Assembly (NCBI GenBank): GCA_002633005.1
Contig: NMRA01000160.1
Coordinates: forward strand, 524,065 to 588,064
Direction of reading: 5' to 3'
DNA: 64,000 nucleotides
DNA from: Phoronis australis
Lineage: Eukaryota; Animalia; Phoronida
Made by a program: the position numbers and the translations under genes. Position 1 is the stretch's first letter. Each line of letters starts with the position of its first letter. The notes under the pieces are model-generated. The model was not told the DNA's origin. It saw only the letters and a list, made by a program, of their open reading frames with translations, and did not search any database. Below are positions 19,407 through 59,960 of this stretch, piece after piece.

Positions 19407-19489
19407 CTACATTGCCACCAGATCTGACAACGTTTGGTCCAACTCTGTACTAACGTCCTTGTACCTCTCCTGTTCAACACTCAGCTCAC
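19407..19489 (-). CDS. Tpm: Tropomyosin exon 9 variant C, muscle-like terminal exon (GELSVEQERYKDVSTELDQTLSDLVAM*)
   Basis: Phase-1 acceptor cccattgtAG, 83 nt to TAG, ERYK--S-ELDQT motif of invertebrate muscle tropomyosin. Confidence 0.93.
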
Positions 19490-20313
19490 CTACAATGGGA
19501 CAAGAGTTGCAAATGAACCAGTACACCAGGCACAGTGAAGCATCGAGACAAAGCCATAAGGACACTAGGGGAAAAAACATTTACTAACATGTTAGTAATC
19601 CAGTACATGCTTGAAATGATTTGCTTTAGTTTATCAACTGTTTGTTGTGTAGTGAACAATAATCGCACACTTCATCAAAGACATTGGAACTGGTCTGAGG
19701 GTGGGTGAGTAAAAACTTCCTCGTACACAATAAAAAAACAACGCATCAATGCAGGTTAAACTATTAGTACAACTCAAATGCTAATAAAGTAAGCCAGTGC
19801 AGTGCTAGATTTACACGAGGAGAGACACACGAAACCAAAATCAACAACAGCCAAACGTGACGGGTAGCAGGAGGGACATTCTTCCTCCCTCACGCACCGC
19901 GTTCTTGTGAACAGTGGTCTTCCTCTCTTCAAACCTGCAGTTCTGTTCTCATTCACTGCAATTCTGTTCTTACGAACACATGTCTGTCATTATCATAATG
20001 CCAAACATATTCCCAGTTTCATTACACGGGACCATTGGATACATCGTACCAAGCACGTTCTACCTAATGTCAAGCACATGCCTCGGTCAACCAAAAATAG
20101 GGGTTCATAAGAAAGTGAATGTGTGCGCAAGAACTAAATTGACATACGTAACAAAAACTTACAGCTTGTGAGAACAGAACTGCACTCGAAAGACGTTGCT
20201 CACGAGAATGATTGCGATTCATAAGGGCGGAAGATTGTCTATCCTGGGTAGGCAACTAAACAAGGAAATATTGTAGAAAAGATCTCGTAACTTACAGCCG
20301 CACAATAAACTCA

Positions 20314-20396
20314 TCACATATCACCCAGTTCCCTACACATGTCTTCGAATTGCTCCTGATATTTTGCCCCCTTGGCTTTTTCATCTTGTTTCTCCG
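20314..20396 (-). CDS. Tpm: Tropomyosin exon 9 variant B (AEKQDEKAKGAKYQEQFEDMCRELGDM*)
   Basis: Phase-1 acceptor cttttgcAG, exactly 83 nt to TGA, aligns without gaps to variants A and C (EL-D terminus). Confidence 0.85.
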
Positions 20397-21800
20397 CTGC
20401 AAAAGCCAGGTAATCTAACAACATGCGATCACGAGAAAACAGACAGGTGGCAGAGATCACCTTGTGACAACAGGTAGTACTGGACCACAGCAGCAGTCAA
20501 GGTCACTAGACAAACAGTCTAAAACCATTGACAGTCGGTCAAGTATGTAACCCTTGTCCAGTCATGACGGGGGGCATTCAATCAACCGAACCTCGCCTTC
20601 TGATAATTGTGTGTGTCTAGCGAATACCGATAGAGGAGCTATTGTGCCGAAAATGTAGAACGATGTCTAGCAAGGGAGACTACTGCAATCAAGGAAGCGC
20701 GCGTGTGTATGCATGTGTGTATGTGTTCAAGCGTGTGTGGTTTTGTGCGAGCATATTTTTCTCAATTTTGCAGTTGTTAGTGAGACACACTGTGAGTGTT
20801 CAGAGTGGGACTTCGAAAGCATAGTTAACTAGTCGAACAGTCAACTACCACATTTACTACTACTACTACTTCTACTACAGTGGACCTTCACCCCAGATGG
20901 TTGGAGGAGAGCGCAGGCCGTTGCCTGGCAATTGCATTACAGCAAGGGCTGGTGTTCCAACTGGCAAATGCTCGGCATTCGTAAAGAATATAGACAGTGA
21001 TGACAAAGCAACCCAGAGGAGAGTCAACAACCGAACGTCATCCACACAAATCACGTGTTTGTGTGTATGCACAACATGGGAACCTCCAACACAGGCACCA
21101 AACAGCTCGGTCATTTTCGCTCTATCTTGATACTACACTAAACAGAATGCTCGCAACCAAAGAACCTCTTGCATTCAACAGAGAAGCCAAATTCCGTTGT
21201 CTACAGTACAGTAGAGTCTTAACCACTTTCTACAATTGTCGAAACTTCCCACATCAAAGTTTTACAACGATGACAAGACAGATGGAAATGAATCTCAGAT
21301 TCACTTCGTTACCGACAACACAAGAGAGGTTGAAAAGGAACACATCACATAGCGGGGAATACGAAAAGCAATTATAAAGAAAAATGTTACCCAGCAACAG
21401 AGTGACACTGGAAAGGGAGGAATGTTCAACCATAGATTATGCCGATAAAAATTCTAAACTTCGAAAAATCACTTTCACCTTCCGATTTTTCCACGAGTTT
21501 CTACTTAGTCCGCAAGCAGTGCACTTTAGCTTCGCACAAATGGGTAATTGAATTTTACATCAACGTGACGAGAATAGGTGCATGAGGAACACCTGACTCA
21601 CGAAACAAAGTTAAGTGGCGTCACATACATTTGAGGAAAGGTCGAGGACACAAGCCTCGATTTTGGAAGGCGACAGCAAAGCTGCCACTTCATTGCGGTC
21701 TATGGTTAAACTGAGAGAAAAGTCAAGTGTTTTGTACTGTTGTGAGCTTTTACACTCTCTAATCCAGTGTGTGTGGTTATGTAGCGGGCCTCTTACTAAG

Positions 21801-21883
21801 CTAGACGTCGTTGAGTTCACCGAGGGCCATATCCATTTCTGCCTTGACTTGAAGAGCATACTCTTTCTCTTTCACCACTTCGT
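21801..21883 (-). CDS. Tpm: Tropomyosin exon 9 variant A (DEVVKEKEYALQVKAEMDMALGELNDV*)
   Basis: Phase-1 acceptor gatttcAG, 83 nt to TAG, 27 aa completing a 284-aa protein. The ELNDV end resembles cytoskeletal isoform termini. Confidence 0.9.
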
Positions 21884-23492
21884 CTGAAATCATGCCACCA
21901 CGCTCAAGGTAGATGCATGCCTCCTGTCACAACTGTGGACAGACTCTGGCCAGATGGCTATGTGACCACCAGTGCTACTGCAACGCTGTTGCCAACGGTG
22001 AAAGATGACCAATGTTCCAATACATAACGCCAAAGGGTTTATATTCACAGGCTTAGACTAATAGAATAGACAATCCTGCTCAATGTGTAGGTAAATGAAA
22101 AACTACAAACTGCCTCAGTATGAAGAGATCTCTTAGCATAGCTCATTGGTCATTTTACTTGAATACAACTGGTTCTCTGTTTAAGATTATGTCAAACCCT
22201 AGAAAAATAACCAAATCTGGCTAACTTAAGAAAACCATATCTCAGAAATAGCCAATCAGATTCATTTGGAACATTCAGATATTATGCTTTATGCACTGTA
22301 GTTCTAAAAATGTCTGTATGGCCGCATAAACATCCAATCAGATGGCTGTATTTTCAGAACACATCCAATCACATGATTGTCTTTTAGACAGAAATTTAAA
22401 AAAATGTCTTTCTGTACATTTAAACATCAAGGTAACTAAAGAAAGAGACAGCTGAGGTCAGAGTACAAATTCTTACAGAGATGAGCTTGACTTAACATTC
22501 ACCACCTTAACACAAAGGTCACCGGGTCGCTAGCACAGTTGGCACGTCAGCGTGATTCAGTCAAAACTGATGGTCACTCACCTGGCTGGAGTCTGGCCAA
22601 TTGGCACATCCAGTAATGGATGAACCAAACAAACTCACTAATTAACTTCACAATGCAACTGAACCAATATTATAAGAAATTAAACATATCTGCTGTTATT
22701 CTTAAGTAAACATGCCATGAACCTTGGTTCTCAGGATCACACAGGCACAACGCCATCTAATGTCCGTTTTAGGTGAAAGGCAAAAATCAACTACCAAATG
22801 TCTACAATAAGGAATGCCATGCCGTTAAATCACTGAACTCTTAATGGTGAAGGGACCATATGCACAAGAAGCAAATGGTGAACTGGTTCGAGTCAAAACT
22901 TGTTGCTGCATGCGGACTATGGTTATGCCAGCTATCGACTTTAGAGTGGATTTCAAAAACAGCAGTCTTTATTCGGCAAACTGGTAACAGGCATTGTACA
23001 ACTTTCCTAGTTAAAGCCACATACGAGCAGTAATTGGGTCACGAGTTCAAGTCAGAAAGAGCTAAGTACATATGCTGATCTTTCAGTGGAAAAAGAAACA
23101 TAATTTGTGACACAACATCAAGTGAAAAATTATACTTTCTCCTACAATACTTCGCTGAAACCAGCATGAGTGAGGAAAGAAACCAAAATCATTGGTGTCA
23201 AAAGGCCAACAGTTGTGAACTACAAAGCTCGTGGCCATGAAAAAATTCCACTTGACTAAACATGTATTCTTATGAAACTAGGAATGCCGACTCAACACAC
23301 TTGTAAACTATAAAGGTTTTTTATGTACATGGTCTCAAGGCACAGTATGTGACTTTAACAGAATGAGGCATTCACTCAGGACAATATTTACAATGAGCAA
23401 CTTTAAAGTCGACATGAACTGCCAAACATCAACTGTCATTATAAAGGTGCCTCGAGAGAACGTAACCCCATTTGACCAGCATGCAACAGTAC

Positions 23493-23562
23493 CTTCAAGC
23501 CTGTCCACCTCCTTCTGCAGTTTCTGTGACTGTCTCTCGCCTTCTTGAGCGCGAGACTCAGC
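23493..23562 (-). CDS. Tpm: Tropomyosin exon 8 (AESRAQEGERQSQKLQKEVDRLE)
   Basis: 70 nt, phase 0/1, tgtttcAG acceptor, donor G|GTACTG, KLQKEVDRLE motif. Confidence 0.97.
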
Positions 23563-24589
23563 CTGAAACAAACGGTGAAACAAGGTTAGACAATCATACA
23601 ATAAGACTTGAGTTCACAGTCGTACACCCACATTAAGCTCAAACATTCTCAACAAGCAATTCAATTGCTCGAGAACACCAAACTGTACTCCAGATTCCAC
23701 TAAAAAACAGACTAATACCATCACATCGAATCTGAAAGTTTTCCTTAAGTATGCTCCTACGAGATTGGTCAATTTTCGAGTCGAGCCTCAAATACCGTGT
23801 GAGCCCAAGTCTTCATAAGAATCAACTCATAACAGGGTCAGCTGACAAGTGCTCAAGAAATGAACAGAGCGCATAGAGACCAGTCTCTTTATAAGACAAC
23901 AATACCAAATCAACATTCATAACCAGCTCCTGGACTCCAGGATATGAACCTGTCAGAAACATTTCACAAGAACGACAACAAACTAAAATAAAAGTGCATG
24001 TGAAATCACACAACAGTACGATAAACCCTGTTGTAATGACAAGCTCAAAGGTGGCACTAATGGAACAATTCTACTTTTAAAATAAATGCATGTGTCCAGT
24101 TAGTCGTGCGAGACCTTATCCACAACGAGCCCAAGCAGTGTCACAGCTTTTTCTCAATTAGCACAGCTTAATGAACGCAGACAAAATGACCTGCAACGAC
24201 TGGATGCAAGTTGAATTCAGGTTATAGTCACTTACAGGGGTTCGGCATTTTGAGAACCTCTACAGAACAAAGAGTGTCAAACTTCTTCTCAAAATCCAGG
24301 ATTCCCACAAGTTACTATTGACAAATTCTACACGGTAGCCATCCGCCACGACAAGGAATTTACAGAAAAGTTGGAAACACTAACCTATATTGCTTATAAT
24401 GTTGCCAAGATTTATATGGTCAAGGACTTTTCAAGGACATTTGCAGGTAGTTCATGGCATACTCAATGCAAATTCAAGACCACTAAAGTTAAAGTTTGTG
24501 TACATTAACCCAAAACACTGGAAAGTCTTTAAGAACTGCGCACCCTCCACAAGAAGCCTGAGGTGCCCAGTCTACGGACGATACCTTAC

Positions 24590-24652
24590 CTCCTTCAGTC
24601 TAGCAGTCAAGTCACGAATAGCTATCTCAAAAGTATCTTCTCTTTGGTTGGA
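24590..24652 (-). CDS. Tpm: Tropomyosin exon 7 (SNQREDTFEIAIRDLTARLKE)
   Basis: 63 nt, phase 0/0, ttttccAG acceptor, donor GAG|GTAAGG. Confidence 0.96.
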
Positions 24653-27600
24653 CTGGAAAAACAACGCAACAACTGCACTCGTACTCACAACAGTTACTAG
24701 AAGTTATCTCCGAAATTGGTTCCATTATTAGATGAAAGATTCTTTGTACACAATCCAGCACAGAACATAAATGGGCGAATGGAATGCTTTGCCATACAAT
24801 GCAACTTTGGCTGGAATTTTTCAACTGAGAGACATAGTGGAGCAAGCTATCAGCCATTAGGTTACGATGCTAGCTAGGGTGCTTCCTTAACTTCTTGAGC
24901 CCGTTCTCGCGCTGCTTTTCTGACGTAGCCCGTCACGGTATCCGTCAACAGCTTACACTGTGCTGCTACAGCCCCTCCTCTCGTGGAATGTCACAATTTT
25001 ATACGCGTGTGCAGCAGGAAAATTGGGATACCCACTCACTTAGAGAGCGGACATGAAACACGGAGACCCATTCATTAGGGAGCTTCCGGATAAAAATCGG
25101 CCTTTCGTAGGTTTCTGTTGCAGAAATAAAGAAGATTTGTAGAAGTTAATTCCCTAACCCTTTTGGAGAGATTCTTGGACAGGGAAATTTTAAAACAATC
25201 AAGACCGAAACAGTAAAAGGTAACAGGGAGGCCATGTTGTCAAAAATTCGCACATCCCTTCTATAAAATATTATTAAAATAAATATATGATATTGAAAAC
25301 CCCTCTGCACATTCGTTAGAAAAAAAAACATTCTGTCGTTTTCAACTTCTTAAGTCAAAGCTTGTGTAAAAAAGTACCCTTTCGTAGGAAGATAGGGTCT
25401 TCTATGAGAGTACCCTCCAGGCATTACCTTGAATCATATATTTTGTTGTTCTTTTTGCAAAGCAGTGACATGATATTGTATTGAAGATTGTGGTCATTGG
25501 TCTATCTATATCTAGAGGACAAAACACAGGTCATGAAGGGGGATTGAAGATAAGGAACAGCCACCTGGTGTCTGTGTCTGACAACGGCAGCTGCTAGCCG
25601 ATTGTGTACAGAGAATTGCATGCCTAACAGACAGCAGTGTTTGAGTGATACTCAAATGTCTCACCTTACTTGGAGAGGAAATAAACAACTATATGCATTT
25701 AGCTCACAGTGAGCTTCTAAACCAAACACACTTAAACAGATGTTTTCCTGAATTCTTAAATAAACACAACACTAACTTTAACAGCACACTTACAAAATTG
25801 GATAACTTAGGCAAAACATGCAGTTACAGTTTCAATTAAGTTACAGTTTCAAGTAGACAATATCACTCAGTGGCAGTGACTGCAGCCTTGCATGCGTGTG
25901 GCGACACCATGAGTGAGTCAGATAAACTAAAAGCTAGCTACATCAAGAACAGCAAGGACTAGCAATAGCACTAACAACTAAGTTGCCTGTATGTTCCGCT
26001 TTAAAGCCACACGCAGTGAAATCTCCAAAAACCATCGTTTTGGTGCTATTTTCGAATGAAGCCTTTTATTTTGACTGGCCCTTCTAAATGGTGAATTAGC
26101 ACATTCACAGATCATTTCAACAAGAACACTGAATGCCACTAGCAGACAGTTTTATTCACAATCTTGGTTTAAAGTATTGCGCAGGCCTTTTATGAGGGAA
26201 AACCTTTTAAGGCTATAGCTCGAAAACAACAGTTTCGGAAGACATTAAGTCAAAACAGAGTGTTCCTAGACAATTGAATAAAGCAAGACTATCAGTTAAA
26301 CTAGACGTGGATCAAGATGGCTCAGGCAGGCCCTACACCGCTACTAGCTGCAAAGAAAGAACTCTTCTATAAGCAATCGGGACGATTGGAGACGTAGCAT
26401 GCAGCTTTGAAACACTTCCCCTCATCCAAACATGCAGAAAATAAAAATAGCCTCTTCCCACAACAATAGCCCAATACTATTTGCAAGCTCGAAACAGAAA
26501 CTCAAAATGCACATCTTCAAAAAGCTATCCCCAACAAATGAGCGCGTTAAACATCTACACTCGAAACTTGCATACATATTTTCGACATAAAAAAATCATA
26601 AACAAACTTGTGCAACTAAGTTCCTGATCTCATTTCTCAAGTCGTCCGCCACTCTGTAAAGTTTGAAAATGTGCTGTACAATAGCCACCATAGATACATC
26701 CTGTCAACGTTACCGTATAGCACAGTGGTCACCGGGGTACAAAAGGACCGTGTTTAACATACACAGACATGTAATACAAAGAGTATGTTATCTGACTGTT
26801 GGTCAAGTACCAGTTTTTTCAGGTGGATATATTTTGAGAAATCTATCAAGAACTTCTGCTAATGAAGGCGATTATCAAAACTGCATGCTACCGATGACAA
26901 GAAGCCCTGAACACAAGCAAGAACTGAAGTTTTTGAGGAGAGCATTGCTACGCTGCTGAGATAATGTCAACAGAAACAATGCAAGCCTCTGAAGGGACAA
27001 GAGCTTTTTGAACATGCTCAACAACAAGACTATGGACTATCCAGGACAGCTATTCTCCACGTCAATGCTGGAGAACATGGGGAAACAAATTTGCGGCCAC
27101 AGATCTTTTTAGATGCGGTAAGTCTGCCGAGAAGAATTGTTAGTTTAAGCACAGGACATCAAAGTGAACTAGGGATTCACAGGATTCCACTAGATGGCGT
27201 CGCCACCTCCTCCACGTGTTCTCACAGATGCGCACCATGTATACCCACGAGAAATCTATAGAATGACAGATTATGCTTCCAAATGCACTGAGAACCATTC
27301 TAAGCAGCGCAGAGGATATCTAGCCATAACTCCGCTCTTGAAATTTCAGATTCACGGTGTCAAATATAACACGGTGGTGCTTAAGTGTGATACTGATACT
27401 GAAACGTTCCGCACTTCAGACTCGTAAAATAGTGATACTAAACAATGGTGTGGTTTGGAAACTAGTACGTCTTGGAGGAAATGGAAATAGTCATGTACTT
27501 CTACTAATGGGGAGAGAGGGGGGTGTGCCGCTGAACAGATATCCTTTTCCATGAAATAACTTCTGGCAGGGAACAAACATCACTTCCAAAACACCTGAAT

Positions 27601-27695
27601 GCAGGTTTGAAATGTCCAGATCCAAACTCTCGACAGGGGAACACAGTTATTCAATGGCACATGCTACACCCCCTATTCCCAGCCCTCCCCACCCC

Positions 27696-27851
27696 NNNNN
27701 NNNNNNNNNNNNNNNNNNNNNNNNNNNNNNNNNNNNNNNNNNNNNNNNNNNNNNNNNNNNNNNNNNNNNNNNNNNNNNNNNNNNNNNNNNNNNNNNNNNN
27801 NNNNNNNNNNNNNNNNNNNNNNNNNNNNNNNNNNNNNNNNNNNNNNNNNNN
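27696..27851. other. Assembly gap (156 N) flanked by C-rich runs, 85 nt downstream of exon 6C
   Basis: N run in the sequence. Confidence 0.99.
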
Positions 27852-27936
27852 CCCCCTCCCCCCCCGCCTAAAGCAACAGCGAGCATCACTGGCATAACAA
27901 GCAGTAACTGACAAGAGCATTCCATGCATGGTATAC

Positions 27937-28012
27937 CTCCTGTTCACTTATTTCGAGTGACTTCATGTTATTACCAACCACTTTCAGTTCATCCTCGAGT
28001 TCCACGATCTTA
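27937..28012 (-). CDS. Tpm: Tropomyosin exon 6 variant C, canonical muscle type ([25 protein letters not shown])
   Basis: 76 nt, phase 2/0, gtttacAG acceptor, donor GAG|GTATAC. Close to the invertebrate muscle tropomyosin consensus. Confidence 0.96.
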
Positions 28013-28588
28013 CTGTAAACACACACACGTGCTCGTTAGCTGCCGGGAACAAACCACTGGGTCACAAGGAAAAACATGTTAGAATCACCCGTAGGAGCAG
28101 TCTAGAGCCACCGTCTACACTCAACTGGAGCAGAGAAATCATAAACGCGGTGCGGAAGGTTAAAAAAACAAGGATTTTATTGCGTGCTAAAGAATTGTCC
28201 ACCCTTGTTTGACTGAGGTTACACAGTATTAACTAGTGGCTACTAGAGAATTGAGTGACGTGGACTAACAAGCCATGACCAGAGTGTGTGGACAACACAG
28301 CTGGCCATCATGGTTGTGTAGCCCCACGTCAGCTCACAGAAAGGTTACAGATAAAGGGTACATCGAAAAATGACTTGACACACGTCGATCAAGTGACAAG
28401 ACAGTATAACAACAGGGTGCACATCAGCCGACAAAGACAGAACAGATTCGACTGGGCGCTTCAGCGTTTGCCGAACAGACATGCGCCAAGACGAACTAGA
28501 CGAGGAAGGGTCAAAGAGCAGGAGCCAAACTGGTGCCAGCACACTCGCAGCTGCTGCGAAACCACATCAACGAGTGGGCGGGTTGTAC

Positions 28589-28664
28589 CTGAGAGTTCTG
28601 CACTTCAAGTGTTTTCATGTTGTTACCGACAATGGTGAGCTCATCAGTCAACTCCGAGCATTTA
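28589..28664 (-). CDS. Tpm: Tropomyosin exon 6 variant B (KCSELTDELTIVGNNMKTLEVQNSQ)
   Basis: 76 nt, phase 2/0, gatttgtAG acceptor, donor CAG|GTACAA, VGNNMK motif. Confidence 0.92.
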
Positions 28665-30496
28665 CTACAAATCAAACAGTTGGGTCATGGATGAGAACAC
28701 ATATGCATAACATTAGTACACCAAGAACCTACTGCATAATTATACATGTTACAGACAACACAGAGAATGGTAGACAGTGATCCTGCAAAGATTGCTGTTA
28801 CCTGAAATTTAAGAACAAGAGCAATGTGCCGACAGGCACCCGTGGTGAGGCATCACAAGGGGCAAGGCTACTATACACAAGTTCGATATCTTTGTGTGCA
28901 CACGAGAGCTGATTGTCCAACCAAATACTGAAAGCACCAATTTACATGCCTTCTGTGATTTCTAATGATAACACACTTTCTTGGTCTCAACTCAATTCTT
29001 AAGTTATTTAGATTCACGGAAATAATTTCTGGGTTTGAGAAAACTGGCCCACACCTGTAAATTCTCATAACGATCCTTTAAACGGTATGGCAGATTGTGG
29101 ATGTCAGAAAACGGATGCAAAAATAACAAAAATGGCCATCAGGTGGCACAGAAAACATCAAATCTATCCGAAAATGGGAAGGTGTTGTTGTCACCTAAAA
29201 AGAAGCCTTTTTGCCAAATTTCATGAAAATGCATTACTGAAATCCAAAGATACAGAGAGAAACATAAAAAGAAACATTTTGTCTCTAGGGGCACTGTAGT
29301 ATCAGGATCAGTTCGACACTCGTTACTGTTTGTCGACGACTCCATAGGAATACACCTTTCAAATTTCACAAAGCTCCTTTAAAGAGTTTAAGGAAATTCG
29401 GCCGCAGATGCAAAAATATTCACCACTAAGGGGGCGACACCGTAGTCAGACCTGTCCAAAAGTCAACGTCAGTCGTGGCCTTTTCATCAACACATCAGTA
29501 AATGTTTATAATGATCCTTTGAGCGGTACGACAGAGCGGACACCAGAAAATGGGTGCAAAAATAACAAAAATGTCCACATGGTGGTGTAACATTCGTTGA
29601 ATCTGTCTGAAAATGGAATGGCATCAACACCTCCATATAAAAAACCTATTTACCAAATTTCATTTGAATCTGTCAAGGACTCCGAAGATAATGACGCAAA
29701 TGTAAAAAACTAAAATTGCCACTAGGGAGCACAGTGGTATCCAGGTCGATCGGAAACTCGACGTAGTCTGTCGTCAGCCACATACGAACACACCTGCCAC
29801 ATGTTAGTAACATCCTGCAAGGGTATACATTTATAAATACATGGGTGCATAAAAATTACGCCATAAAACCGAGACGAGCACTTGCTCAAGATCTGAGAAT
29901 GCTGTTTAAAAATGACAGGCAAGCACGGTAAAAACACTCTTCTTAGAAGCAATCTAAACAGTTTCAAGATTAGCCAAGAAACTGAGCAGCCAAGCACAGT
30001 TGAGCAGTTATTGCTTAGCTCAAGTATAGTAAAATCCATTGAGTGATAACACTTCAAACCACATGGTTGGAAAAATAAGATTAGCAGATAGACAGACATG
30101 GGTGACCGACAGACGATTGGATGCCACACAGGCGGGCAGAGAGATGATGCAATATTCACCGCCACTGTGGAAGTGGGTGAATAAAAATTGACACAAATTG
30201 GTACAATTTGATAACGAACCACCCCGGAACAAAACAAGCAAGTCCTGAAGGCTGTTGTCTCTGCAAAAGAAAAGAACTGTGGTTTAACAAATATAACTCT
30301 TGGACAGACCCCCACCAGTAAGCTGAGGGTGACGTGGTGCGGCAGAATGAGTCGACATCCACCAGGGCCCCTCCTAAGAGCTGAAGGTCAAAGGTTGTAC
30401 AATGACTTGCTGGGATGGCACCTTGTTCACAAGCCTAAAGCGAATCGGTCTATAGAGCGCGCTGCCAGGGATGGACCACACATGTGTCCTTCTTAC

Positions 30497-30572
30497 CTGG
30501 TCTAGTTGCACCTGTATGGACTTAACTGCGATATTGGCCGCGTCCAGTTCTGTCTCCGACTCCTTCAAGGTT
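30497..30572 (-). CDS. Tpm: Tropomyosin exon 6 variant A, divergent (TLKESETELDAANIAVKSIQVQLDQ)
   Basis: 76 nt, phase 2/0, ctttgtAG acceptor, strong donor CAG|GTAAGA. Aligns without gaps to variants B and C (EL...KS). Confidence 0.8.
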
Positions 30573-31238
30573 CTACAAAGTCAAATCTCATGTCATGCAC
30601 AATACTGAAAGCAAGGTGTCTAAAATTAATGCATACCGGCACTCAAGTCGATTGTGAATCATAAAATACCCATAGCAAAAGCACTGGAGTTCATATCGGT
30701 GCTACGGAGATTTGGTTACATGATGTGAAAGAACTTACATCTTGCACAGTATAATAAGGATTTGTAATTGGTATTCAGCCCATTTCTAAAACTTTGGCGA
30801 GTACCACGGTAAATCGGTTAAAGGTCTCGTGATTTTGTTTACAAAGACTCATCTCAAAATATAAATTTGCTCAGATAGCTGAATGTATGACACAGTTATG
30901 TGAATAGAAGAGTTCTTAGATCGCATAAGGCTAACTGTTGTATGTACTTATTTTAGTATTAATATACTCGTATCAATAAGAAAATATAAATATGGGACCA
31001 TATCAAAAATTCACAACGGTGTAATGGTATGCAGCTCTAATCAGCACTACTTTTCACATGGAATAACAATTATATAAATTAGGAAAAAACCCATTCTTTA
31101 TCACCCTTTTTCCAGATTTCATAGTCAAATTTGTCAATACCACTGCTACTCAATATCTTAACCAAATCTGCCGGATGACACCACTACAGTTAAAAATCTT
31201 TTTGAACGCTCACATGAACCGTTGGTGAGAACTTGTAC

Positions 31239-33402: not shown

Positions 33403-33473
33403 GATTCGGCAGCCTCCAGGCGAGCTTCAGCACGCTCCAGGTCAACTTCATTGATGGCCAGCTTGCGAGCAGC
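33403..33473 (-). CDS. Tpm: Tropomyosin exon 5 (AARKLAINEVDLERAEARLEAAE-S)
   Basis: 71 nt, phase 0/2, ttaacAG acceptor, donor TC|GTAAGT, highly conserved lophotrochozoan-type motif. Confidence 0.97.
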
Positions 33474-35858
33474 CTGTTAAGGGAAGACAAACTTATTAAA
33501 TAGTTGGACAATGTGACAGTGCGTTTTGTAAGATATCGGTTATTGTGAAGACTTGATGAAGACTTAATTAAACGAAAAACAGGATTCTAAGAGAGCCAAA
33601 ACAAAGCCTAAAATTTTCCGTGGAATAGTCAAAACACCAAGTGCAGTGCAAAAATCGCGCACATTCATTAGCACCAGAAGTTACGAGAATGTTTAGGAAA
33701 CATTAAAAAAGATATATTTACTTAAGGTTTACTACCAACTTGGCAAAATTTCACGAGATCATTAGAATTAGGCAACAGCATTACATCTCACTGGGATATG
33801 AGAAAAAAAATAAACTTCATGCAATATTTATGTTCCAGTAACTACTGGCAAATTTGTACAAAAACAGTGGATGATTATCGTAAATCTTCAAAAGAACAAA
33901 ACGTTACCGAACAGCGGATAAAGGATAAACATGTCATAGAACTTTCACGATTCCATGCACAAATGCTAGCCTAATAAATTTACATTTGAATTAGTTTAAA
34001 GGCACATCCAGTAAAGATAATTCTCGTTGAACGAATTTCTTGTTGAGACAAGGTTTTGATGTCCCTGTGCAGTGCACATTAGAATAAAACTATCTCATTG
34101 AGCAGAAACAGAATTTTTGCACATGTGGCTGCAATGAGATTTTTCTAACGCTTTCTAGTAACATTTAGAAATTGTCTGCAAATGCACAAGACTTGGGTGC
34201 TTCGGTCAACAGTCTAGAAAATTAACATCATTTCCACATAGATTCAAATCTGGGACTTTTTAAATTAGAAGCCAAAGGCTTTGCCAACGCGGCCTGTTAT
34301 ACTAAGTACGACAGTTTAACTAAAATTTTTATCAATGCTGAAAACACTGATTTGGCACCTCTCGGGACACTTGATTTTTCAAAGCATTGAAAATTTCCAA
34401 ATTCATTGACTTTCAACAAATGAACATTCCACAGGGAACGTTTTGCTGCAGTTTGAAGTTGACAATTATTTTTGACATTCGAAATGGTACTGCATGGGAC
34501 TTTAAAAGGGTTAACAAAATTCAGACAACTGTAATACAAGCCAAAAGTCTTCAGACAAAATGACCTGGAATTCTCCAGCATGACGGCTGAGCGAAAGCCA
34601 ATTCATTGTCATATTGGGGGAATCAACGGGAAGGCAAATGAGGTGACTAAGCCATTCTGCTACCAGAATTTTGTCACTCTAATATCAGTAATTTTTGCTT
34701 TTCACGCAATTAACTATCACGAAGGGTTACTGGTATTTTGTCTGAATACTTTTGTCTTGTACTGTATAACATTGAACAACATGTTAGTAAAACACAATTC
34801 ATAATTTTCTGAGGACACTCCAAATAATCGGCTGAAATATCACCTTGGGGATTTCCCCTTGAAGTAAAATCGAAAATGAATACTCATCACGGTCCTTTGG
34901 AAAAAAACAAGCAAAACAATTTTTTATCATATATCAGCTTGGATTGTCCTCCTTTTCTTACAAATGGTGTGCAACTTTTCAGCTACTTTTACGCAACTTT
35001 TCAGCTACTTTTACAAACCACCACTGAAACCAAGAATGTCAAACAACGCATAAGCGCATAAGCACATCACCAAGGTAAGATGTCGTTGCACATTTTCATA
35101 CAAGTTGGTTGACATTTGGAAGGCATTTGACGTAGTGTAAACACAATAACAACTAAATCTGCTAGCACCATGCAGGTCAGTGATACCTAGGTCTGAAATC
35201 AATCAATGCTGTTAGTCACAATTTCATGGAAGAAATCTACAATTAATGTGTGAGGCATTCGTCATGTCATCAAAAATGCACAGTGAAAATACAATTCTGA
35301 TTCCGAACACAAACGCACATACTCTCACTCATACGCGTGCACAGACGAAGCAATATTATGTTCCAATCACGACGAAGAAACTACCGCACCATTATCACCA
35401 CACAATCTGGAGTGGGGGAAAACGGAGACGACAACGGGTCACAAACTGTTAATAGTCTCGTTCCTTGGTTGCACCACACGGACACTCCGACAATATGGAA
35501 AATATTTGATGCTTTCAACAGTGACCTCAAAACGCAGAAGAAAACCAGCACCGTTGATGGACATTTACACCCACCATATATCTTCATACTAATGCCAAAG
35601 TCTGGGTAAATGCCCGCCCACGAATTTTACGCAATATCACTTTTAAGCATCCACTTTTGCTTGCGTCCAATTTAACACCCATGTTTAGATTTTTTGTTCG
35701 ATATAAACGCCTGGCCTGAATAAGTACAGAAGGTAGTTCGAAACCACTACAGCAAGATTTCTTCCCTTAAGCACTCAATTTATTTTTCTAGATGACCTGC
35801 TCTGAGACCAAGTTGAAGCATCTAAAGCAAAGAGTCAACATGAGCGAGATACACAGAC

Positions 35859-35976
35859 CTCGTCAAACTTGGTCTCGGTATCCTTGACAACAACTCGCGC
35901 GGTCTCCACTTCTTTTTCCAGTCCAAGGATTTTCTCTTCGTCCGCAATTGAACGGGACTCCATAGCTTTTCTATTT
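35859..35976 (-). CDS. Tpm: Tropomyosin exon 4 variant D (NRKAMESRSIADEEKILGLEKEVETARVVVKDTETKFDE)
   Basis: 118 nt, phase 2/0, cacgtttAG acceptor, donor GAG|GTCTGT. Clear paralogue of variant C. Confidence 0.88.
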
Positions 35977-36110: not shown

Positions 36111-36228
36111 CTCATCAAACTTGGTCTCCGTATCAGAGAGAACAACGCGCGTGGTTTCCAGCTCTTTTTCCAAACCAGCAATTTTGTCCTCCTCTGTGAA
36201 TGACCGAGACTCCATTGCTTTTCTATTT
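36111..36228 (-). CDS. Tpm: Tropomyosin exon 4 variant C (NRKAMESRSFTEEDKIAGLEKELETTRVVLSDTETKFDE)
   Basis: 118 nt, phase 2/0, cccctttAG acceptor, donor GAG|GTGTGG. Confidence 0.88.
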
Positions 36229-36576: not shown

Positions 36577-36694
36577 CTCGTCAAATTTTCTGTCGGCATC
36601 TTCAGCTATGAGCCGCGCCTCCTTTAGTTGGTCCTCTAGCGTCTCGCACCGCTCCTCATCTGCAGTGTTGCGGCTCTCTAGAGCCTTGCGCCCT
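36577..36694 (-). CDS. Tpm: Tropomyosin exon 4 variant B, closest to the canonical muscle sequence ([39 protein letters not shown])
   Basis: 118 nt, phase 2/0, ctccacAG acceptor, donor GAG|[24 protein letters not shown] motif. Confidence 0.95.
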
Positions 36695-36880: not shown

Positions 36881-36998
36881 CTCATCAAATTTGCGCTCAG
36901 CCTCTGTACGCAACTCAGTGGCCTCATTTAGTGCCGCTTCGAGTGTTTCTATTCTCTCCTCGTCTATAGCTCGTCGATTATCCAGGCTTTTTCTTTGC
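36881..36998 (-). CDS. Tpm: Tropomyosin exon 4 variant A (QRKSLDNRRAIDEERIETLEAALNEATELRTEAERKFDE)
   Basis: 118 nt, phase 2/0, catcAG acceptor with a CTAAC branch point upstream, donor GAG|GTAGGT. Confidence 0.9.
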
Positions 36999-38314: not shown

Positions 38315-38448
38315 CTCTCGCTCTCATCAGCAGCTTGGGATGCCTCATCTAGTTTGGCTACCACCTCATTGAGTCGTTCTTCTGTTAAATCAAAGTTATC
38401 TTGCAGGAGTGTCAATTTATTGTTCAGGGATATCACCTCGGCATCGGC
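38315..38448 (-). CDS. Tpm: Tropomyosin exon 3 (ADAEVISLNNKLTLLQDNFDLTEERLNEVVAKLDEASQAADESE-R)
   Basis: 134 nt, acceptor ttctttctacAG, donor AG|GTGAGT, phase 0/2, EASQAADESER motif. Confidence 0.97.
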
Positions 38449-47890: not shown

Positions 47891-48028
47891 GGCTTCTTTC
47901 TCTTCCCTTAAACAGCAACATTCCTTTTCTTTTTGTTGAACGTCAGTTTCTAATTCTTCAATTTTTTCTTTGAGTTGTGCAACCCTCTTCTTAACAACAT
48001 TGACTGTTACGTTGTGTCCCCCCTCCAT
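47891..48028 (-). CDS. Tpm: Tropomyosin exon 1b, short-isoform first exon (MEGGHNVTVNVVKKRVAQLKEKIEELETDVQQKEKECCCLREEKEA, 46 aa)
   Basis: ATG at 48028, VKKRVAQL heptad pattern typical of exon 1b, phase-0 donor GCC|GTGAGT, and the expected position between exons 2 and 3. Gives a 250-aa isoform. Confidence 0.9.
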
Positions 48029-50383
48029 AGTTTTCGGTTTAGTTTCAGCGGCAAATGCAACCAGCAAGACGACTGATATTAAATGGCCGACACCGGTTTG
48101 CTAGACTGTGCACTCATCCGTATACATCCGCGAGATATTCGAATAACGCCTAATTCGTCGCATCTCATAATAGTTGAACTTAAAAAGCACATAGCTTAAA
48201 TTTTTTTACAATCTGCGCAAGTGCTTGACATTTTCATTTCTCGCATAAGCCTAAAACTATCAAGTGCCCATTGGCGGTACAATTTGGCGGATTAACTTTA
48301 TTTGACCTAATCACTTGCGTTCCACTCAAACTGGGTCAATGACATACCTGGGCTGAACGCGTCCTGTGGTAAAAAATCACTCGGCACGCCTGCTCCATTT
48401 GAATTTTTCTGTATCAGAATTTAATTCAGCAAAATCAAATTCGGACATTAAAACAAGGTTTGCTTCTTGCTTTTTGTCGCTAACAGCGAACTCTAAGCAA
48501 TTTTGAAGCAAAAATTAAAATTTCCCCCACGAAAAAATAAGTATCATGGTAAAACTAAAATCTAAAAATGCATTTTCAATTTTCACGTAGGGGACTACAT
48601 AAAAACTCCATTAACTCAAACGGATGCTTTGTCAGACCAAGGGTAGCACATACTGCAGTGAGACAACACAGGTTACAAAGCTCCCCCGCCCCTCGGGGAC
48701 TGTTTAATTAGTGCATTTTGGAAAACACGAGTACGAAAATTTTCACGCCTCACAATTTTACATGCATTAGGAGAAATGTAAGACTCAAACCACCGTATTT
48801 TTCAAAGGACTTGCACTCGAGACTTGTAATCGGGAATAATACTAAATGTATTAACTTTAAAGTCATTTAGGTTAACGAATCTTACGTTTCAACATAAAAT
48901 GAGGAATGATTTAAAAAATCGTAAGAATTTTGAATAGGGGACTTTTTAACTCGACGCTTGTTTAATCGGGCAGCTCGTTGCGCCATCTATGTGCCAATGA
49001 AGGACATTCGAGTCACTAGTAGATGGGGAGTGGCCGTCGGGAAGTGCATCTCAGAAGCCAGAGCCACGCCCAGTTTTCCCTACTAAGTAATGACTTTTCA
49101 GACAAATCCCCTGCGAAAGAGTTTACTTTAGGAGTTTGAAACTCTACAAATTTTTTTTCCACAAATCTGGGGAACCTTATTTTCTTCCAACTGACGCCAA
49201 GTCTACATTTTTGACAACATAGCCCCAGCTCTAGTAATGGTGCTTTGGACTTGTGGGTAAAATTCAGCTGTTAAAGAATTCCTGGCTGAGAAAGGGTTAG
49301 GTTTACGGAATGCGGAATCCCTACAGAAGGGTAATGTTTTGGAACTGAATCCTCTCCCGGAAATTCATGGTTACTATTTCCCTGGAAGCTGGATACACTG
49401 ATGGGTTCCCATTTATCGAGTCCACACTCTAAATGAATGGGTATTCTACTTTTCCATCCCCCCGTCAAAGGGTAATCACTAAACCTGCTCTAGGGGGAAA
49501 AGCGCAGCTGGGCCGTGACATCATTGCTAAAACATCGTCATCAATCAAACACATGCATGGAGTGGATTCAAGAAGTAGCAACTTTTTACGCCATTTCAGT
49601 GCTGGCGTTGTGTAGTAGATGGGGTTGTCTGAAGTCCATGGGCCTACTCCACGTGATACCTGACGTCGACACTATTTTACGAACATGATTTTACGGAAGT
49701 GTATAGCGTCAATATAGAAATAAAAGCTTTAAGGTCTGGAATTTGGCGTTTCCTGTAACCAGGAAAGAATACTTGAACACCCCGCGACGTATTTGTGACC
49801 TAGATAGCTTACTCCGTCGATCGTGGTCTTGATCTAGACCTGCTACATATCTTGTCAGCGCATGTTGTAAAACAGAGCAGACGGGATTTACTCATACACT
49901 ACAGCTCAATAAACGACTTTCGTCACTACAATTCCTTTTCTGTCACTGTGCCCGTGCTCAAAATTACAGATTTGCCTGTCCGCGTCCACGCGCAGCGGTA
50001 CTATACTGGCGGACGGACCTCCGACATATATCTAGAATGGCTGAACATTGACTCTGATGCTCTGTTAAGAGTACAGCAACAAAGATTTGCCTTGATCAAC
50101 GGAATAGAGCATCACGCGAGACTGTTTATAGACCTACAAATGGCATGCTTATACAGTTACCAATTTGGAAGCCGAGGCGTTTGGCAAATGGAAAACAGAT
50201 TTGAGCAACTGTTGGCTGGCAGTGTGCGCAGTCAGATGGGTTCGCTGGCATTACGGTAAATGGCAATCGCTGGCAAAACTGAAATAGACACTACAGAGCA
50301 ACTACATACAGTTCTCAAGCTCAACGCGCAGACGACAGATAAAAAATGATAATAACATGAATCATGAGGAGATAATCACGTAC

Positions 50384-51013
50384 CCTCCTGAGCTGCGGTT
50401 TGATGGAATTCTGTATCTCGGCCCAAATAATAGTGAATTTGATAGCAGAATTAGAGTTCACACCAAACAAAGAGGGTAGAAATGACGCAGTGCGTCTATT
50501 TGACCTGGGTAGTTCATCGTCTTCGGACAAGCTTACGTCCTCGATGTCACTAAATATCAAGTTATTCCCATATATTAACGAGTGATATTCACTTTCATCG
50601 TCTTTGCTGTTACCTCCTTCGGGCTCCGGTCTTTTACAGTTTTTTCCATCGCCATCTCGTCGTTTAGAATGTTTGCTGGCATCGTATACCTCCCCGCCCT
50701 CTTTTAGTTTGATTTTCTTTTTTACTTTCTTTTCGTGATCTTTCTCAGTCTCACTCTCTGTTTTGACTTTCTTCTTTTTCTTTTTCTTCTTGTCTTTAAT
50801 AGGGTTCTTTTTCGGGGATAATTCCACACTTTCTGCCGTGGAGTTACGTGCATCTGTTAAGCCCTCCATTGAGTCGGCCAAATTTTTTGCGTCACTGTCC
50901 GCCATTTTGTTTTCTGCTTTTTGGGTTCCCATGGCTACCGATTTCACATAGTTCTGTTGATCGAAGTCACATGATTCCATGCCAATTTCCTTGCCCATGG
51001 CCCCAAGGTCCAT
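50384..51013 (-). CDS. Tpm: Putative alternative first exon of tropomyosin encoding a 210-aa low-complexity Lys/acidic head
   Basis: Long ORF inside the intron between exons 2 and 1b, on the same strand. It ends at a phase-0 donor (AGG|GTACGT) compatible with exon 3. The splice link itself is inferred. Confidence 0.65.
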
Positions 51014-53741: not shown

Positions 53742-53867
53742 CTCAGATTTAGATTTCTTTAGTTCCTCTAGTTCGGTAGTGACTCGCGCCAGATCTTCTT
53801 GTGCAGTGTCCAGTTCGGTTTCTACTGTTGCGATTCGCTTCTGAAGGGCCATCACCTCATCGTCTTT
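53742..53867 (-). CDS. Tpm: Tropomyosin exon 2 (KDDEVMALQKRIATVETELDTAQEDLARVTTELEELKKSKSE, 42 aa)
   Basis: 126 nt, acceptor tttattgtAG, donor GAG|GTAAGT, phase 0/0. The ELDTAQE motif matches tropomyosin residues 39-80. Confidence 0.95.
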
Positions 53868-56888: not shown

Positions 56889-56894
56889 TTGGTC

Positions 56895-56973
56895 TCTTGC
56901 GAGAAAAGCAAGACTTGACGAGATATCGCCATGTATTACAAGCGAAGCACGTGATCACACTAGCTTCCTTAGC
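56895..56973 (+). repeat. Dispersed ~80-bp repeat with a CACGTGATCACACTAGCT core; related copies near 18235, 57072, 57910 (inverted) and 61349-61437 (inverted)
   Basis: Shared blocks tcttgcgagaaaagcaa and cacgtgatcac..tagcttccttagc, seen directly or as reverse complements. Confidence 0.7.
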
Positions 56974-59585
56974 TATATATTCCTGTGTCTACGACACTCT
57001 ACCCAGTGCGATCAGGCCTCATACGAATTCCTGCTGTGCGATAACAGCATCCCGTTTAGTAACGCTAAGACCTCGCTAAAAAGCAAGACATCGCGAGATT
57101 ACGTGAGATATTGCAGTGTTTTAAACAAGAACACGTGACTAAGGCTAGATTTTAGCTAGGTCCTAGCGTAGGTCCTAGTGCACGTCAGGTTAGCACCATG
57201 TTGCTAACGGAAGTGGGAGAAAAAATCACTTTGCCTCTTACCTCGGAAATGGTCTCTTCGTAAGATAACGGTGCAGAGTTGTCTTGGTACAGACAACGGA
57301 ACTATTGAGCATTGTGGGTACTGTCGTAACAATTACTCAAAAATCAACACTCCTACAGTATTTGAAAGTTGTGGTGCAGACTCTGACCAGAGTGATGTGT
57401 TATGGAAATCGCTCTGAGAGCCCATCTCAAACTAAGAGCGCTGCTCTCCGAGTCACAGCTATCGGGTATCTCCTAATAAAATATTATACTAGGGTGTGTC
57501 GAATGGGGGGGGGGGCAAAAATTGTGGCAACGCGGTTTATGAAAATTTGGCGACGGAGGACAAAATTTGTGACCTTGTAATGGGGGGATGCAGTTCGAAA
57601 TTTGTGGTCACCCGAGGATGGTTCAAAATAGCTCAAATTACCAGAACTCCTAGACTTGTAATTGGTTATGAGGGCCTCGACAAGCAGGTGTGCTTTTCGA
57701 AAAGTTATCAGAATGAACGTGCCTTGGGCCGTGATCATAGGTCTGAGTAAATTGCGCATGCCAAAAGCACGCGAAACCAGAAGAGAAATTCAAACCATTT
57801 TTAATACATGAGCATTTCGCCTAAAGCTATAAAAGTGTTGAAATACTTTTCAACTTTATTGAAAAACATTCTTGCAACTGAGATCAGTATTGAATTCTGT
57901 GGACGCAAGAATCTCGCGAAAGTATCTAGTGTGATCACGTGTTTCGATATCTCGCGAAATCTTGTGCGATATCTTTTGCATTTACGATGTTCTCGCATCT
58001 GTGGAACGCGCGCCAGTTCACTTTCTAATTATGTTTTTGAAACAACAATCAGATGATTGCGATGTGTAAGGTATTTTTGGCAACCATAAGTATGCTTTTG
58101 ACAATTAATTTAAAACACTCAGACTTGTTTTTTCTTGGTTAATTAATTACAACGTTTGCCTATGTGAGCCTCTCAGCAATGAGGAATGCCTTTAAATATC
58201 ATAAGCTATTCTTTAGCTGGCGGACATTAAACAAGTAAAAAAAACATCTCTAGGCATACTATTGATAAATTTCATAATTTCTAAAGCGTTGTTGGTATTT
58301 CAGTGATTAATATTTTGACTTTTGAACCACAAAAAATGTCAGAACTGTAAGATTTGTGCTCCAAATTCTATTACAGTTATTTGATACCAAGCTATTTCTG
58401 ATGCATCTGCCGTAAACCTCGCCGGAACCGTATTTGGCTGTTGCTGCGGTTAAGATCTCGGTCAGGGATTCAGACCAGCGGAGACGACTAGAAAATGGTC
58501 AGATCAACATAACAAAGACAGTTGACCTCACTTTAGTAACATCTAGTCATAACAGAATTCACAGTTTGATAAGATAACGCAACATTACGACTGGGCGGCA
58601 ACTTGCACGTATGGTTTGATGTTAAGTCCCGCATGACAATATTTTTCAGCCGAGTGGCCGTTATCCCGAAGTCAACAAATCCCTCATATTAAAAACAGAT
58701 GTCCGCAGCGTCCATTTTAATGTGTTGGCCATCAGCAACAAAACAGCCCCGTCGTCAGTGAGTTAGATCTCCATAATACATCCAGAAACACCTTCTAAGC
58801 AGAGAAATCCAAGATGGCGGATATTGTTCCACATTTTTTACATTCCTGGCTACTTCCAAACAAGTTCGGCTGCAGTGGCACGAAAGCTAGAAAGCGTTTT
58901 GAGCTAAACAAACGGTTAGGTCGAGCAAAGCTTTCCATTATGCACGAGTTACGGTACATAAGCCAAGCAGGCAACAGATTTTAGACTTCGACATAAGAGA
59001 GGGTCAAAATGACAAAATAAATATATGACAGTTGACAGTGTCCGCTGATTGCTATAACTATGAAGCATCTGAATAGCTAAACAATGAGCCTATATTTCAT
59101 AAATAAAACACAATTAATTTTATAGACAACAAAATATGTAATCAATAATTATGCGTTATCACTATGAGTTAAGTAGTTGTTAAACGATTCAAACCAAGTT
59201 ACAGATAAGGCGTCAGTAAGGTCTTGTATTACATCCTAGGTCTGGTGTCATGACCTTGTTTTGTCTATTTGATACGGTTATCACTCATTAATTATGAGAG
59301 CGACATTACTGAATAAGGTGTGACCGCTTTTCAGAGGTTCAATGTCGGTCTGTGTTCTGGAAACGGGTGTTCGGATGGCGTAAAATCATTAACACAGACA
59401 TTTTTGAAAAACATGTTGGTACAACAATCGCGATTTGACGCCGGCCCAGGAAAAATGTCGTGGATACCATGTTACGGACAGTACTTTAGAATTTTAGGCC
59501 TGCACTGATGATAATACTTGTAATAATATCAAAACTAAAATGTGATTTTTGTCGTTTTTTACATAGCCACCTAGGCCAGTTTTAC

Positions 59586-59699
59586 CTTTTGTAAGTTTTC
59601 TTGACTATCTCGAAGTTGTTGCTCCAGCTGCTCAGCTTTGTCCAATGCGGCGTCTTTGTCAGATTTCATCGCCTGCATCTTCTTCTTGATGGCGTCCAT
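59586..59699 (-). CDS. Tpm: Tropomyosin exon 1a (MDAIKKKMQAMKSDKDAALDKAEQLEQQLRDSQENLQK, 38 aa); an in-frame upstream ATG at 59723 may extend it
   Basis: Canonical MDAIKKKMQAMK start, 114 nt (canonical exon 1a size), phase-0 donor AAG|GTAAAA. Confidence 0.97.
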
Positions 59700-59960
59700 C
59701 GTGTTTGTTGCTGGTGCTGCCATTTTTGACTGAAATCACACTGGAGGGGTACGAGATACTGGAAGAGAACACGGGCCGAACTGAGCAGAGCACAACGCAC
59801 GAAAATGTACTGTGCGAATGACGAAAAAGTGAGCGAGTGGCTGTGAGCGACTAGAGTAAGACGATGCCCTCAAAAGATGACAGACAACGGAAGCTAACCC
59901 CACAAACCTTCAATTGGTAGTCGAAATACACTAGCATTCGAAACGTCACGCTAGCCACGG

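What the first reader, a model, noticed from the sequence alone, without database searches (positions are those of the whole stretch)
19407..59723. Tropomyosin locus with three cassette arrays and three N-termini: up to 108 in-frame isoforms
Seen: exons of canonical tropomyosin sizes (114, 126, 134, 118, 71, 76, 63, 70, 83 nt) with matching phases sum to exactly 284 aa. Exon 4 is present 4 times, exon 6 three times, exon 9 three times, and there are three possible starts (3x4x3x3=108). Known: vertebrate TPM genes vary exons 1, 2, 6 and 9, and exon 4 is constitutive. Inference: this lineage builds its actin-filament isoform repertoire from one gene by exon duplication, and automated annotation probably misses most of the variants.
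Basis: partly seen in the sequence, partly recalled or inferred. Interest (0 to 1): 0.8.

Follow-up and report, generated by a model that had tools for sequence, protein, structure and literature searches.

The report
Multi-cassette tropomyosin with fly-type kinesin head
This animal's tropomyosin gene splices one of four copies of exon 4, one of three of exon 6 and one of three last exons, likely in a few linked sets and not all 108 combinations, and it also carries a first exon resembling the fruit-fly head that binds the motor kinesin-1, so that transport module is likely much older than flies.

Summary
All exons have AG/GT ends and all 108 combinations are open. RNA reads splice all ten cassette copies and two of the three starts.

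The 108 figure is only arithmetic. Across three RNA runs, use of exon 2, exons 4b-d and exon 9c rises together (0.43/0.57/0.73; 0.43/0.61/0.75; 0.46/0.52/0.76). This points to a long and a short isoform class, about 15 forms at most. RBFOX-type GCATG motifs crowd the cassettes here and in two related loci.

Such arrays are known. C. elegans lev-11 has three 118-nt copies, and two other loci carry four exon-4 copies, so the array is not special to this lineage.

It matches fly 7BJS in register, keeps the kinesin-contact residues, and is conserved in an annelid and in locus L065. Its splice to exon 3 was not among the listed RNA joints. A fly paper calls it drosophilid; this scan noted it before in arthropods (e1-7497388).

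The parts
59586..59723 (-). Exon 1a, first coding exon of the long (284 aa) class; canonical ATG at 59699, upstream in-frame ATG at 59723
   Evidence: PF00261 1-37, E 1.6e-6; 1a>2 junction not covered by RNA lays
53742..53867 (-). Exon 2 (126 nt, single copy)
   Evidence: loose-end reads at exon 3 match exon 2, 184/269/508
50384..51013 (-). Exon 1c: atypical Tm1-I/C-type first exon, 210 codons, K/E/D/S-rich, conserved 90-aa end, phase-0 GT donor
   Evidence: no listed RNA joint
47891..48089 (-). Exon 1b, first exon of the short (250 aa) class; ATG at 48028, molecule ends pile up at 48089
   Evidence: 1b>3 197/140/192; ends 32 of depth 69 in X2, 19 of 63 in X4
38315..38448 (-). Exon 3 (constitutive, 134 nt)
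36881..36998 (-). Exon 4a (118 nt), tracks with 1b; two GCATG at -31 and -12
36577..36694 (-). Exon 4b (118 nt), most canonical copy (30 of 39 aa identical to copy 3 of L065/L072); two GCATG at +9 and +35
36111..36228 (-). Exon 4c (118 nt), rare (1-3.5% of exon-4 joints); sister of 4d
35859..35976 (-). Exon 4d (118 nt), 3-46% of exon-4 joints by run
34997..35023 (-). 27-nt in-frame micro-exon between 4a and 5 in runs X2 and X3 only; the window has no GT at its 3' end
   Evidence: (18/14/0 reads)
33403..33473 (-). Exon 5 (constitutive, 71 nt)
30497..30572 (-). Exon 6a (76 nt), most divergent copy
   Evidence: 5>6a 44/55/1; loose ends match exon 7
28589..28664 (-). Exon 6b (76 nt)
27937..28012 (-). 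Exon 6c (76 nt), canonical copy
24590..24652 (-). Exon 7 (constitutive, 63 nt)
23493..23562 (-). Exon 8 (constitutive, 70 nt)
21801..21883 (-). Terminal exon 9a, tracks with 1b and 4a; GCATG at -37 and -12
20314..20396 (-). Terminal exon 9b; GCATG at -30
19407..19489 (-). Terminal exon 9c, tracks with the long class

Best explanation
This is one tropomyosin gene, likely of a spiralian animal, whose duplicated exons 4, 6 and 9 are each spliced one at a time and are likely chosen in linked sets, and whose third start encodes a fly Tm1-I/C-type head predicted to bind kinesin-1. Shown: exon structure, splicing of all ten cassette copies and of starts 1b and exon 2, different usage between runs, and homology of exon 1c to the fly head. 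Inferred: a short class (1b-3-4a-5-6x-7-8-9a/9b) and a long class (1a-2-3-4b/4c/4d-5-6x-7-8-9c), at most about 15 forms. Inferred: RBFOX binding upstream represses 4a, 6a, 9a and 9b, and binding downstream promotes 4b, 6b and 6c, coupling choices by cell type. Inferred: double inclusion or skipping shifts the frame (118 and 76 are 3n+1) and would be removed by nonsense-mediated decay. Inferred: 1c is used in a tissue not sampled here and makes a non-actin, kinesin-1-binding isoform.
For: Junction reads for every copy. Usage differs between runs, chi-square p < 1e-34 for each array. Read ratios stay constant for 4a/1b (1.37, 1.35, 1.28) and 9a/4a (0.52, 0.53, 0.53) but swing for 4d/1b (0.07, 0.83, 2.4); class shares agree. 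GCATG within 50 nt of cassettes: 9 seen against 0.93 expected, rank 2 of 1024 5-mers. It replicates in L072 (10 vs 1.23) and L065 (6 vs 0.5), with 0 beside their non-cassette control exons. The position rule is from PMC5840707 (passages), copy-to-isoform assignment from PMC3342872. 4c vs 4d differ at 16 third, 8 first and 2 second codon positions. For 1c: BLASTP to the annelid protein P0037 E 1e-10; seven more homologs; same place between exons 2 and 3 in L065 with a phase-0 GT; 10 of 24 identical, ungapped, to 7BJS chain C ending at the exon junction; a head-only profile hits 7BJS_C at E 4.6e-5; fly I267/L271/Q278/L279 read I/I/Q/L here, and the fly triple mutant of I267, L271, L279 loses kinesin binding (PMC8247599).
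Against: Only three bulk runs from one study, about 18-19% of each read. X2 and X3 share variant sites and may be one animal. Covariation is not phasing: no read links two arrays in these tables. The ratio pairs were picked from 120 examined. Exon-6 choice does not follow the classes cleanly (6c/4a 0.80, 0.99, 1.21). In the X1 contigs 4d has depth 7968 while 6b and 6c have 5737 and 2513, so 4d likely pairs with both. 9c also has an upstream GCATG (-121), and 4c/4d have none within 150 nt. The motif was noticed before it was tested in the window. 1c>3 is not among the listed joints. The upstream 1c motif shared with the annelid-type homologs did not align to the Drosophila navojoa protein; only the last 27-48 positions did. 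The lineage is inferred from sequence type, not shown.
Confidence: 0.72

Rival explanations
1. The arrays are chosen independently, Dscam-like, so most of the 72 (two starts) or 108 (three starts) combinations are made.
For: All combinations are in frame. Exon-6 choice is partly free of exon-4 choice (X1 depths; ratios). No phasing data exclude rare combinations.
Against: Start, exon-4 and exon-9 shares move together in three runs. A review of tropomyosin evolution states that copies are assigned to one promoter isoform. C. elegans lev-11, with several clusters, has seven reported isoforms (PMC10512467).
Confidence: 0.1
2. The arrays work as in the best explanation, but exon 1c is a conserved head with another job (or is silent in this species) and does not bind kinesin-1.
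For: No listed 1c>3 joint and depth near zero. The window's copy is the most diverged in its alignment, 27-31% identity. Only about 24 residues match the fly. The fly protein also ends in a unique tail after exon 4, which was not shown here.
Against: The 210-codon frame is open with a phase-0 donor. The conserved stretch is the one whose mutation abolishes kinesin binding in the fly. The kinesin site is described as conserved (PMC8247599).
Confidence: 0.13
3. The minor copies (4c, 6a) are splicing noise or decaying duplicates, and only two or three copies per array matter.
For: 4c is 1-3.5% of exon-4 joints and 6a is 0.1% in X4. No ortholog of 4a, 4c, 4d or 6a was found in other loci.
Against: Both are spliced precisely on both sides. 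6a reaches 13-14% in X2 and X3. 4c vs 4d has 12 synonymous-only and 9 non-synonymous codon changes with frame and length kept. Core a/d positions stay mostly hydrophobic in every copy.
Confidence: 0.05

Closest known systems
C. elegans lev-11 tropomyosin (PMC4165533, passages; PMC10512467, passages)
   Same: Single gene, two promoters, mutually exclusive clusters including three homologous 118-nt (3n+1) exons, alternative last exons; UGCAUG motifs noted near such clusters in that species.
   Different: Four 118-nt copies here, exon 6 separate from exon 7 and triplicated, and a third atypical first exon. Copies in different phyla are reported as independent duplications (PMC9741552).
Drosophila atypical tropomyosin Tm1-I/C (aTm1; PDB 7BJS, 7BJG, 7BJN; PMC8247599, passages and section 9)
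   Same: Long low-complexity first exon joined in phase 0 to exon 3; homologous 20-residue helix extension in register; I267, Q278, L279 kept and L271 changed to I.
   Different: Head of 210 aa with an upstream conserved motif shared with annelid-type homologs but not aligned to the fly protein. Expression, truncated C-terminus, antiparallel dimer and kinesin binding not shown. The paper describes aTm1 as present in Drosophilidae.
Recurrent tandem exon duplication in bilaterian tropomyosin genes (Irimia et al. 2010, not held; seen only through PMC3342872, and PMC9741552)
   Same: Duplicated exons, long and short isoforms from alternative promoters, copies apparently assigned to one class.
   Different: Nothing in kind. 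This locus has a high copy number, and 4c/4d are a local duplication (100/99 support).
Unnamed loci L065 and L072 (metagenome contigs)
   Same: Four tandem 118-nt exon-4 copies, GCATG enrichment, two GCATG downstream of the canonical copy in both; L065 has the 1c-type exon between exons 2 and 3.
   Different: They also duplicate exon 2 (L065) and exon 5 (L072) and show two exon-6 copies (L072). Only the canonical copy is clearly close to a window copy (30 of 39 aa); the tree leaves the others unresolved.

Membership tests
Bilaterian tropomyosin gene with tandem mutually exclusive exons | Canonical exon sizes and phases giving a 284-aa coiled coil | tested here: met
   Pfam PF00261 hits for exons 1a, 2, 4a-d; PDB tropomyosins for exon 3
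Bilaterian tropomyosin gene with tandem mutually exclusive exons | Each duplicated copy is spliced to the shared flanking exons, one at a time | tested here: met
   No copy-to-copy or skipping joint among 15 of 21 listed for exon 4 (hidden joints are weaker than 8 reads); for exon 6, 64 of 79 joints were hidden, so minor double inclusion is not excluded
Bilaterian tropomyosin gene with tandem mutually exclusive exons | Long (1a-2) and short (1b) isoforms from alternative starts | tested here: met
   2>3 and 1b>3 reads and a 1b start pile-up; 1a>2 itself not covered
Bilaterian tropomyosin gene with tandem mutually exclusive exons | Copies assigned to one isoform class | tested here: inconclusive
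   covariation in three bulk runs; no phasing
Bilaterian tropomyosin gene with tandem mutually exclusive exons | Isoforms bind F-actin | not testable with these tools
   needs co-sedimentation
Atypical tropomyosin Tm1-I/C (aTm1) | Unique 20-residue helix extension directly before exon 3, with kinesin-contact residues | tested here: met
   residue roles from PMC8247599
Atypical tropomyosin Tm1-I/C (aTm1) | Long low-complexity N-terminal domain in an alternative first exon | tested here: met
   first 180 residues are 17% K, 11% E, 10% D, 10% S; no significant Pfam family; disorder itself not predicted
Atypical tropomyosin Tm1-I/C (aTm1) | The exon is transcribed and spliced to exon 3 | tested here: inconclusive
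   not among listed joints in three runs; joined only in a predicted annelid gene model (P0037); 0 spliced examples among 80 loci
Atypical tropomyosin Tm1-I/C (aTm1) | Shortened coiled coil with a unique C-terminal tail after exon 4 | not tested
   seen in the fly proteins; no transcript end after exon 4 was sought systematically here
Atypical tropomyosin Tm1-I/C (aTm1) | Binds kinesin-1 heavy chain, forms antiparallel dimers, binds RNA | not testable with these tools
   no kinesin sequence of this animal was available; no complex job run
Dscam-type hypervariable gene | Independent choice between arrays | tested here: not met
   start, exon-4 and exon-9 shares covary; weak test, three runs
Dscam-type hypervariable gene | Docking site pairing with a selector before each copy (recalled) | tested here: inconclusive
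   inverted-repeat scan showed no single site pairing with every copy among the 25 longest of 33 and of 36 pairs

The most novel reading that the evidence does not exclude
The kinesin-1-binding atypical tropomyosin, described in print as a drosophilid feature, is an ancestral protostome (possibly bilaterian) third product of the tropomyosin gene. It is kept in spiralians with an extra conserved upstream motif and would act there as a kinesin-1 brake and RNA-transport adaptor, while an RBFOX code shared across distant animals partitions independently duplicated cassettes between muscle and non-muscle isoforms.
Probability: 0.55. Interest if true: 0.68.

Novelty: new variant of a known kind. Interest (0 to 1): 0.48.

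Why it matters
The cassette arrays are a rich but ordinary case of a known pattern, now backed by RNA. The part that would matter is exon 1c. If it binds kinesin-1, a regulator studied for oskar mRNA transport in flies predates oskar-type germ plasm and the arthropod-spiralian split, and its general role could be tested in annelids and other spiralian models. The conserved upstream motif gives a new, specific target. The replicated GCATG pattern gives a direct test of how independently duplicated exons are captured by one splicing code.

Tried and rejected
No whole genome is held for this window, so paralogs and kinesin were not searched. Word-index protein searches with exon 3 and exon 1c found nothing; these are weak negatives. 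A single-sequence PDB search with the last 79 aa of 1c found nothing at E 10; the link came through P0037, the profile and a direct pairwise comparison. The 1c profile found no relative in prokaryote genome contigs (46 pattern matches, 0 confirmed). Rfam gave 0 hits. Steric exclusion was set aside because introns between copies are 134 nt or longer; branch points were not mapped. GTGTG was the top 5-mer in the window but replicated weakly in L072 (p 0.013) and not in L065 (p 0.38), so it is not claimed. ACTAAY showed no enrichment pattern. The exon-4 tree (39 columns, 20 rows, 10 of 15 inner branches open) cannot date the copies. Atlas searches gave only leads. No structure or complex job was run. 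Irimia 2010 and Cho 2016 are not held. Searches for the atypical head outside flies: 33 papers, 20 listed, titles and abstract starts only; 30 of 7,896 listed, none holding the phrase; 0 papers; this is a weak negative because most subscription papers are missing. No supplements were read; those of PMC8247599 may hold wider alignments.
Full report
Observation. The gene lies on the minus strand from 59723 to 19407. I located 18 coding exons and checked their ends; all internal exons have AG and GT, and 108 of 108 combinations translate without a stop, to 284, 250 or 414 aa. Exon 3 matches solved tropomyosins, and all four exon-4 copies match Pfam PF00261 positions 85-122. A scan of all open AG..GT segments of canonical length put the four exon-4 copies first among 43 candidates and showed no further copies of exons 2, 3, 5, 7 or 8. 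Copies are old: 33-54% amino-acid identity among exon-4 copies except 4c/4d at 77%, 24-56% for exon 6 and 19-33% for exon 9.

RNA. Three raw-read RNA runs under the same species label (one study, 18-19% of each read) and one contig set were laid on 19000-38900, and the three runs on 30450-50449. Every cassette copy is joined to its shared neighbours. Reads in X2/X3/X4: 3>4a 269/189/246, 3>4b 174/166/284, 3>4c 12/17/9, 3>4d 14/116/461, 5>6a 44/55/1; 5>6b 84/140/406, 5>6c 215/187/298, 8>9a 141/101/131, 8>9b 110/149/93, 8>9c 210/273/695. Starts 1b (197/140/192) and exon 2 (184/269/508 loose ends) join exon 3. One search lists 15 of 21 joints and none is a copy-to-copy or skipping joint; one search lists 15 of 79, so minor errors in the exon-6 array could be hidden. 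The 1c>3 joint is not listed and depth there is 1.39/0.04/0.24. The 1a>2 joint was outside both stretches.

How many isoforms. Usage differs strongly between runs. The shares of exon 2, of exons 4b-d and of exon 9c are 0.43/0.57/0.73, 0.43/0.61/0.75 and 0.46/0.52/0.76; the last exon-2 value is an upper bound because the short-side 1b reads of X4 were not listed. Ratios 4a/1b (1.37, 1.35, 1.28) and 9a/4a (0.52, 0.53, 0.53) are flat while 4d/1b spans 0.07 to 2.4. I infer a short class (1b, 4a, 9a/9b) and a long class (1a-2, 4b-d, 9c), at most 6 + 9 forms if exon 6 is free. Against this: three bulk runs, two possibly from one animal since they share variant sites; the flat pairs were picked from 120; nothing is phased; and 4d likely pairs with both 6b and 6c in X1. 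The inference agrees with a review stating that each duplicated tropomyosin exon is assigned to one of two promoter isoforms (PMC3342872, section read whole).

Mechanism of choice. Copies of 118 and 76 nt are 3n+1, so double inclusion or skipping shifts the frame; removal by nonsense-mediated decay is inferred. In C. elegans this holds for many clusters but was not detected for lev-11 5a-c (PMC4165533, passages). Introns between copies are at least 134 nt, and no shared docking pairing stood out. GCATG, the RBFOX core, occurs 9 times within 50 nt of the cassettes against 0.93 expected (rank 2 of 1024), and the excess holds to 300 nt. I noticed it by eye first, so the fair test is other loci: L072 10 vs 1.23 and L065 6 vs 0.5, with none beside their control exons; those two loci are related to each other. 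The motifs lie upstream of 4a, 6a, 9a, 9b and downstream of 4b, 6b, 6c, with an exception 121 nt upstream of 9c. Upstream binding represses and downstream binding includes (PMC5840707, passages), which fits repression of the short-class exons in RBFOX-rich cells. This step is inferred.

Is the array special? No. C. elegans lev-11 has three 118-nt mutually exclusive copies; human, fly and worm genes each carry unrelated duplications and three last exons (PMC9741552, passages). Of 80 loci from a metagenome scan, I examined 10 that looked genomic or long; two, L065 and L072, carry four exon-4 copies each, plus duplicated exon 2 (L065) or exons 5 and 6 (L072); L078, L079 and L080 show one exon-4 copy in the DNA held, four short contigs hold exon 3 only, and L055 is intronless. 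Orthologous copies between L065 and L072 are 33-39 of 39 identical. Only window 4b is close to one of them (30 of 39); 4c/4d are a local pair (100/99); the rest of the tree is open.

The third start. Exon 1c (210 codons, phase-0 GT) is not tropomyosin-like. An exon-3 search returned P0037, a predicted protein of the annelid Paralvinella palmiformis, whose head matches the end of 1c at E 1e-10. Seven unnamed single-exon proteins share the head, and L065 holds it between exons 2 and 3 with a phase-0 GT. A profile of these heads hits the Drosophila atypical tropomyosin chains 7BJS_C (E 1.4e-7) and 7BJG; trimmed to the head alone it still hits 7BJS_C at E 4.6e-5 for a PDB-sized search. The window's last 24 residues align ungapped to 7BJS_C, 10 identical, ending at the exon junction. 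Fly I267, L271, Q278 and L279 read I, I, Q, L here. In flies this 20-residue extension precedes the shared coil, the I267/L271/L279 triple mutant loses kinesin binding, residues 252-334 bind Khc at 141 nM in an antiparallel triple coil, and the protein is said to be present in Drosophilidae (PMC8247599, passages and section 9). That paper also notes a CD caveat for the mutants, which I saw only in a truncated passage. The upstream spiralian-type motif did not align to the D. navojoa protein. Kinesin binding here is predicted, and expression is not shown in three runs.

Lineage. The exon-5 sequence is of the type in the annelid and flatworm proteins, not the nematode one, and the only named homolog of the long 1c motif is an annelid. 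Spiralian is likely; a non-chordate deuterostome is not excluded.

Verdict. The feature is real. The arrays are a new member of a well-known pattern and 108 is an upper bound, not a count. The atypical head outside arthropods was not found in my paper searches (weak negative) and is the reason for rating this a new variant, interest 0.48.

Noticed in passing
window 34997-35023 (-): A 27-nt in-frame micro-exon joins 4a to 5 in X2 and X3 (18 and 14 reads) but not X4. It would add nine residues with two tryptophans to the coil. The window has TT, not GT, after it, inside a 22-nt tandem duplication; an allele-specific donor is possible but unexplained.
   Followed up: partly
window, donor at 45804 (-): A minor exon in the 1b-3 intron splices to exon 3 with 2/3/3 reads; its 5' end was not determined.
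   Followed up: no
window 5079-5942 (-): An intronless-looking forkhead gene 13 kb downstream of the tropomyosin gene (PF00250, E 1.9e-34); subfamily not determined.
   Followed up: partly
window 11522-12073 (-): A 183-codon open frame rich in K/R/E with no Pfam hit; may be a small gene.
   Followed up: partly
window 36656-37033 (-): Reading through the 4a donor stays open for about 75 codons and includes a hydrophobic run. The fly atypical isoform appears to end by reading on after exon 4 (P0066). Probably chance here; untested.
   Followed up: no
window 31650-32760 and 43170-43950: Two local tandem duplications of several hundred bases, each with a single N at the junction (32198, 43628), likely assembly artefacts from heterozygosity (seen).
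   Followed up: no
L072 8322-8709 and L065 1523-1834: Related loci duplicate exon 5 and exon 2, which are single in the window.
   Followed up: partly
P0037, P0050: Database gene models join mutually exclusive tropomyosin exons in one protein (503 and 606 aa), an annotation error typical of this gene.
   Followed up: no
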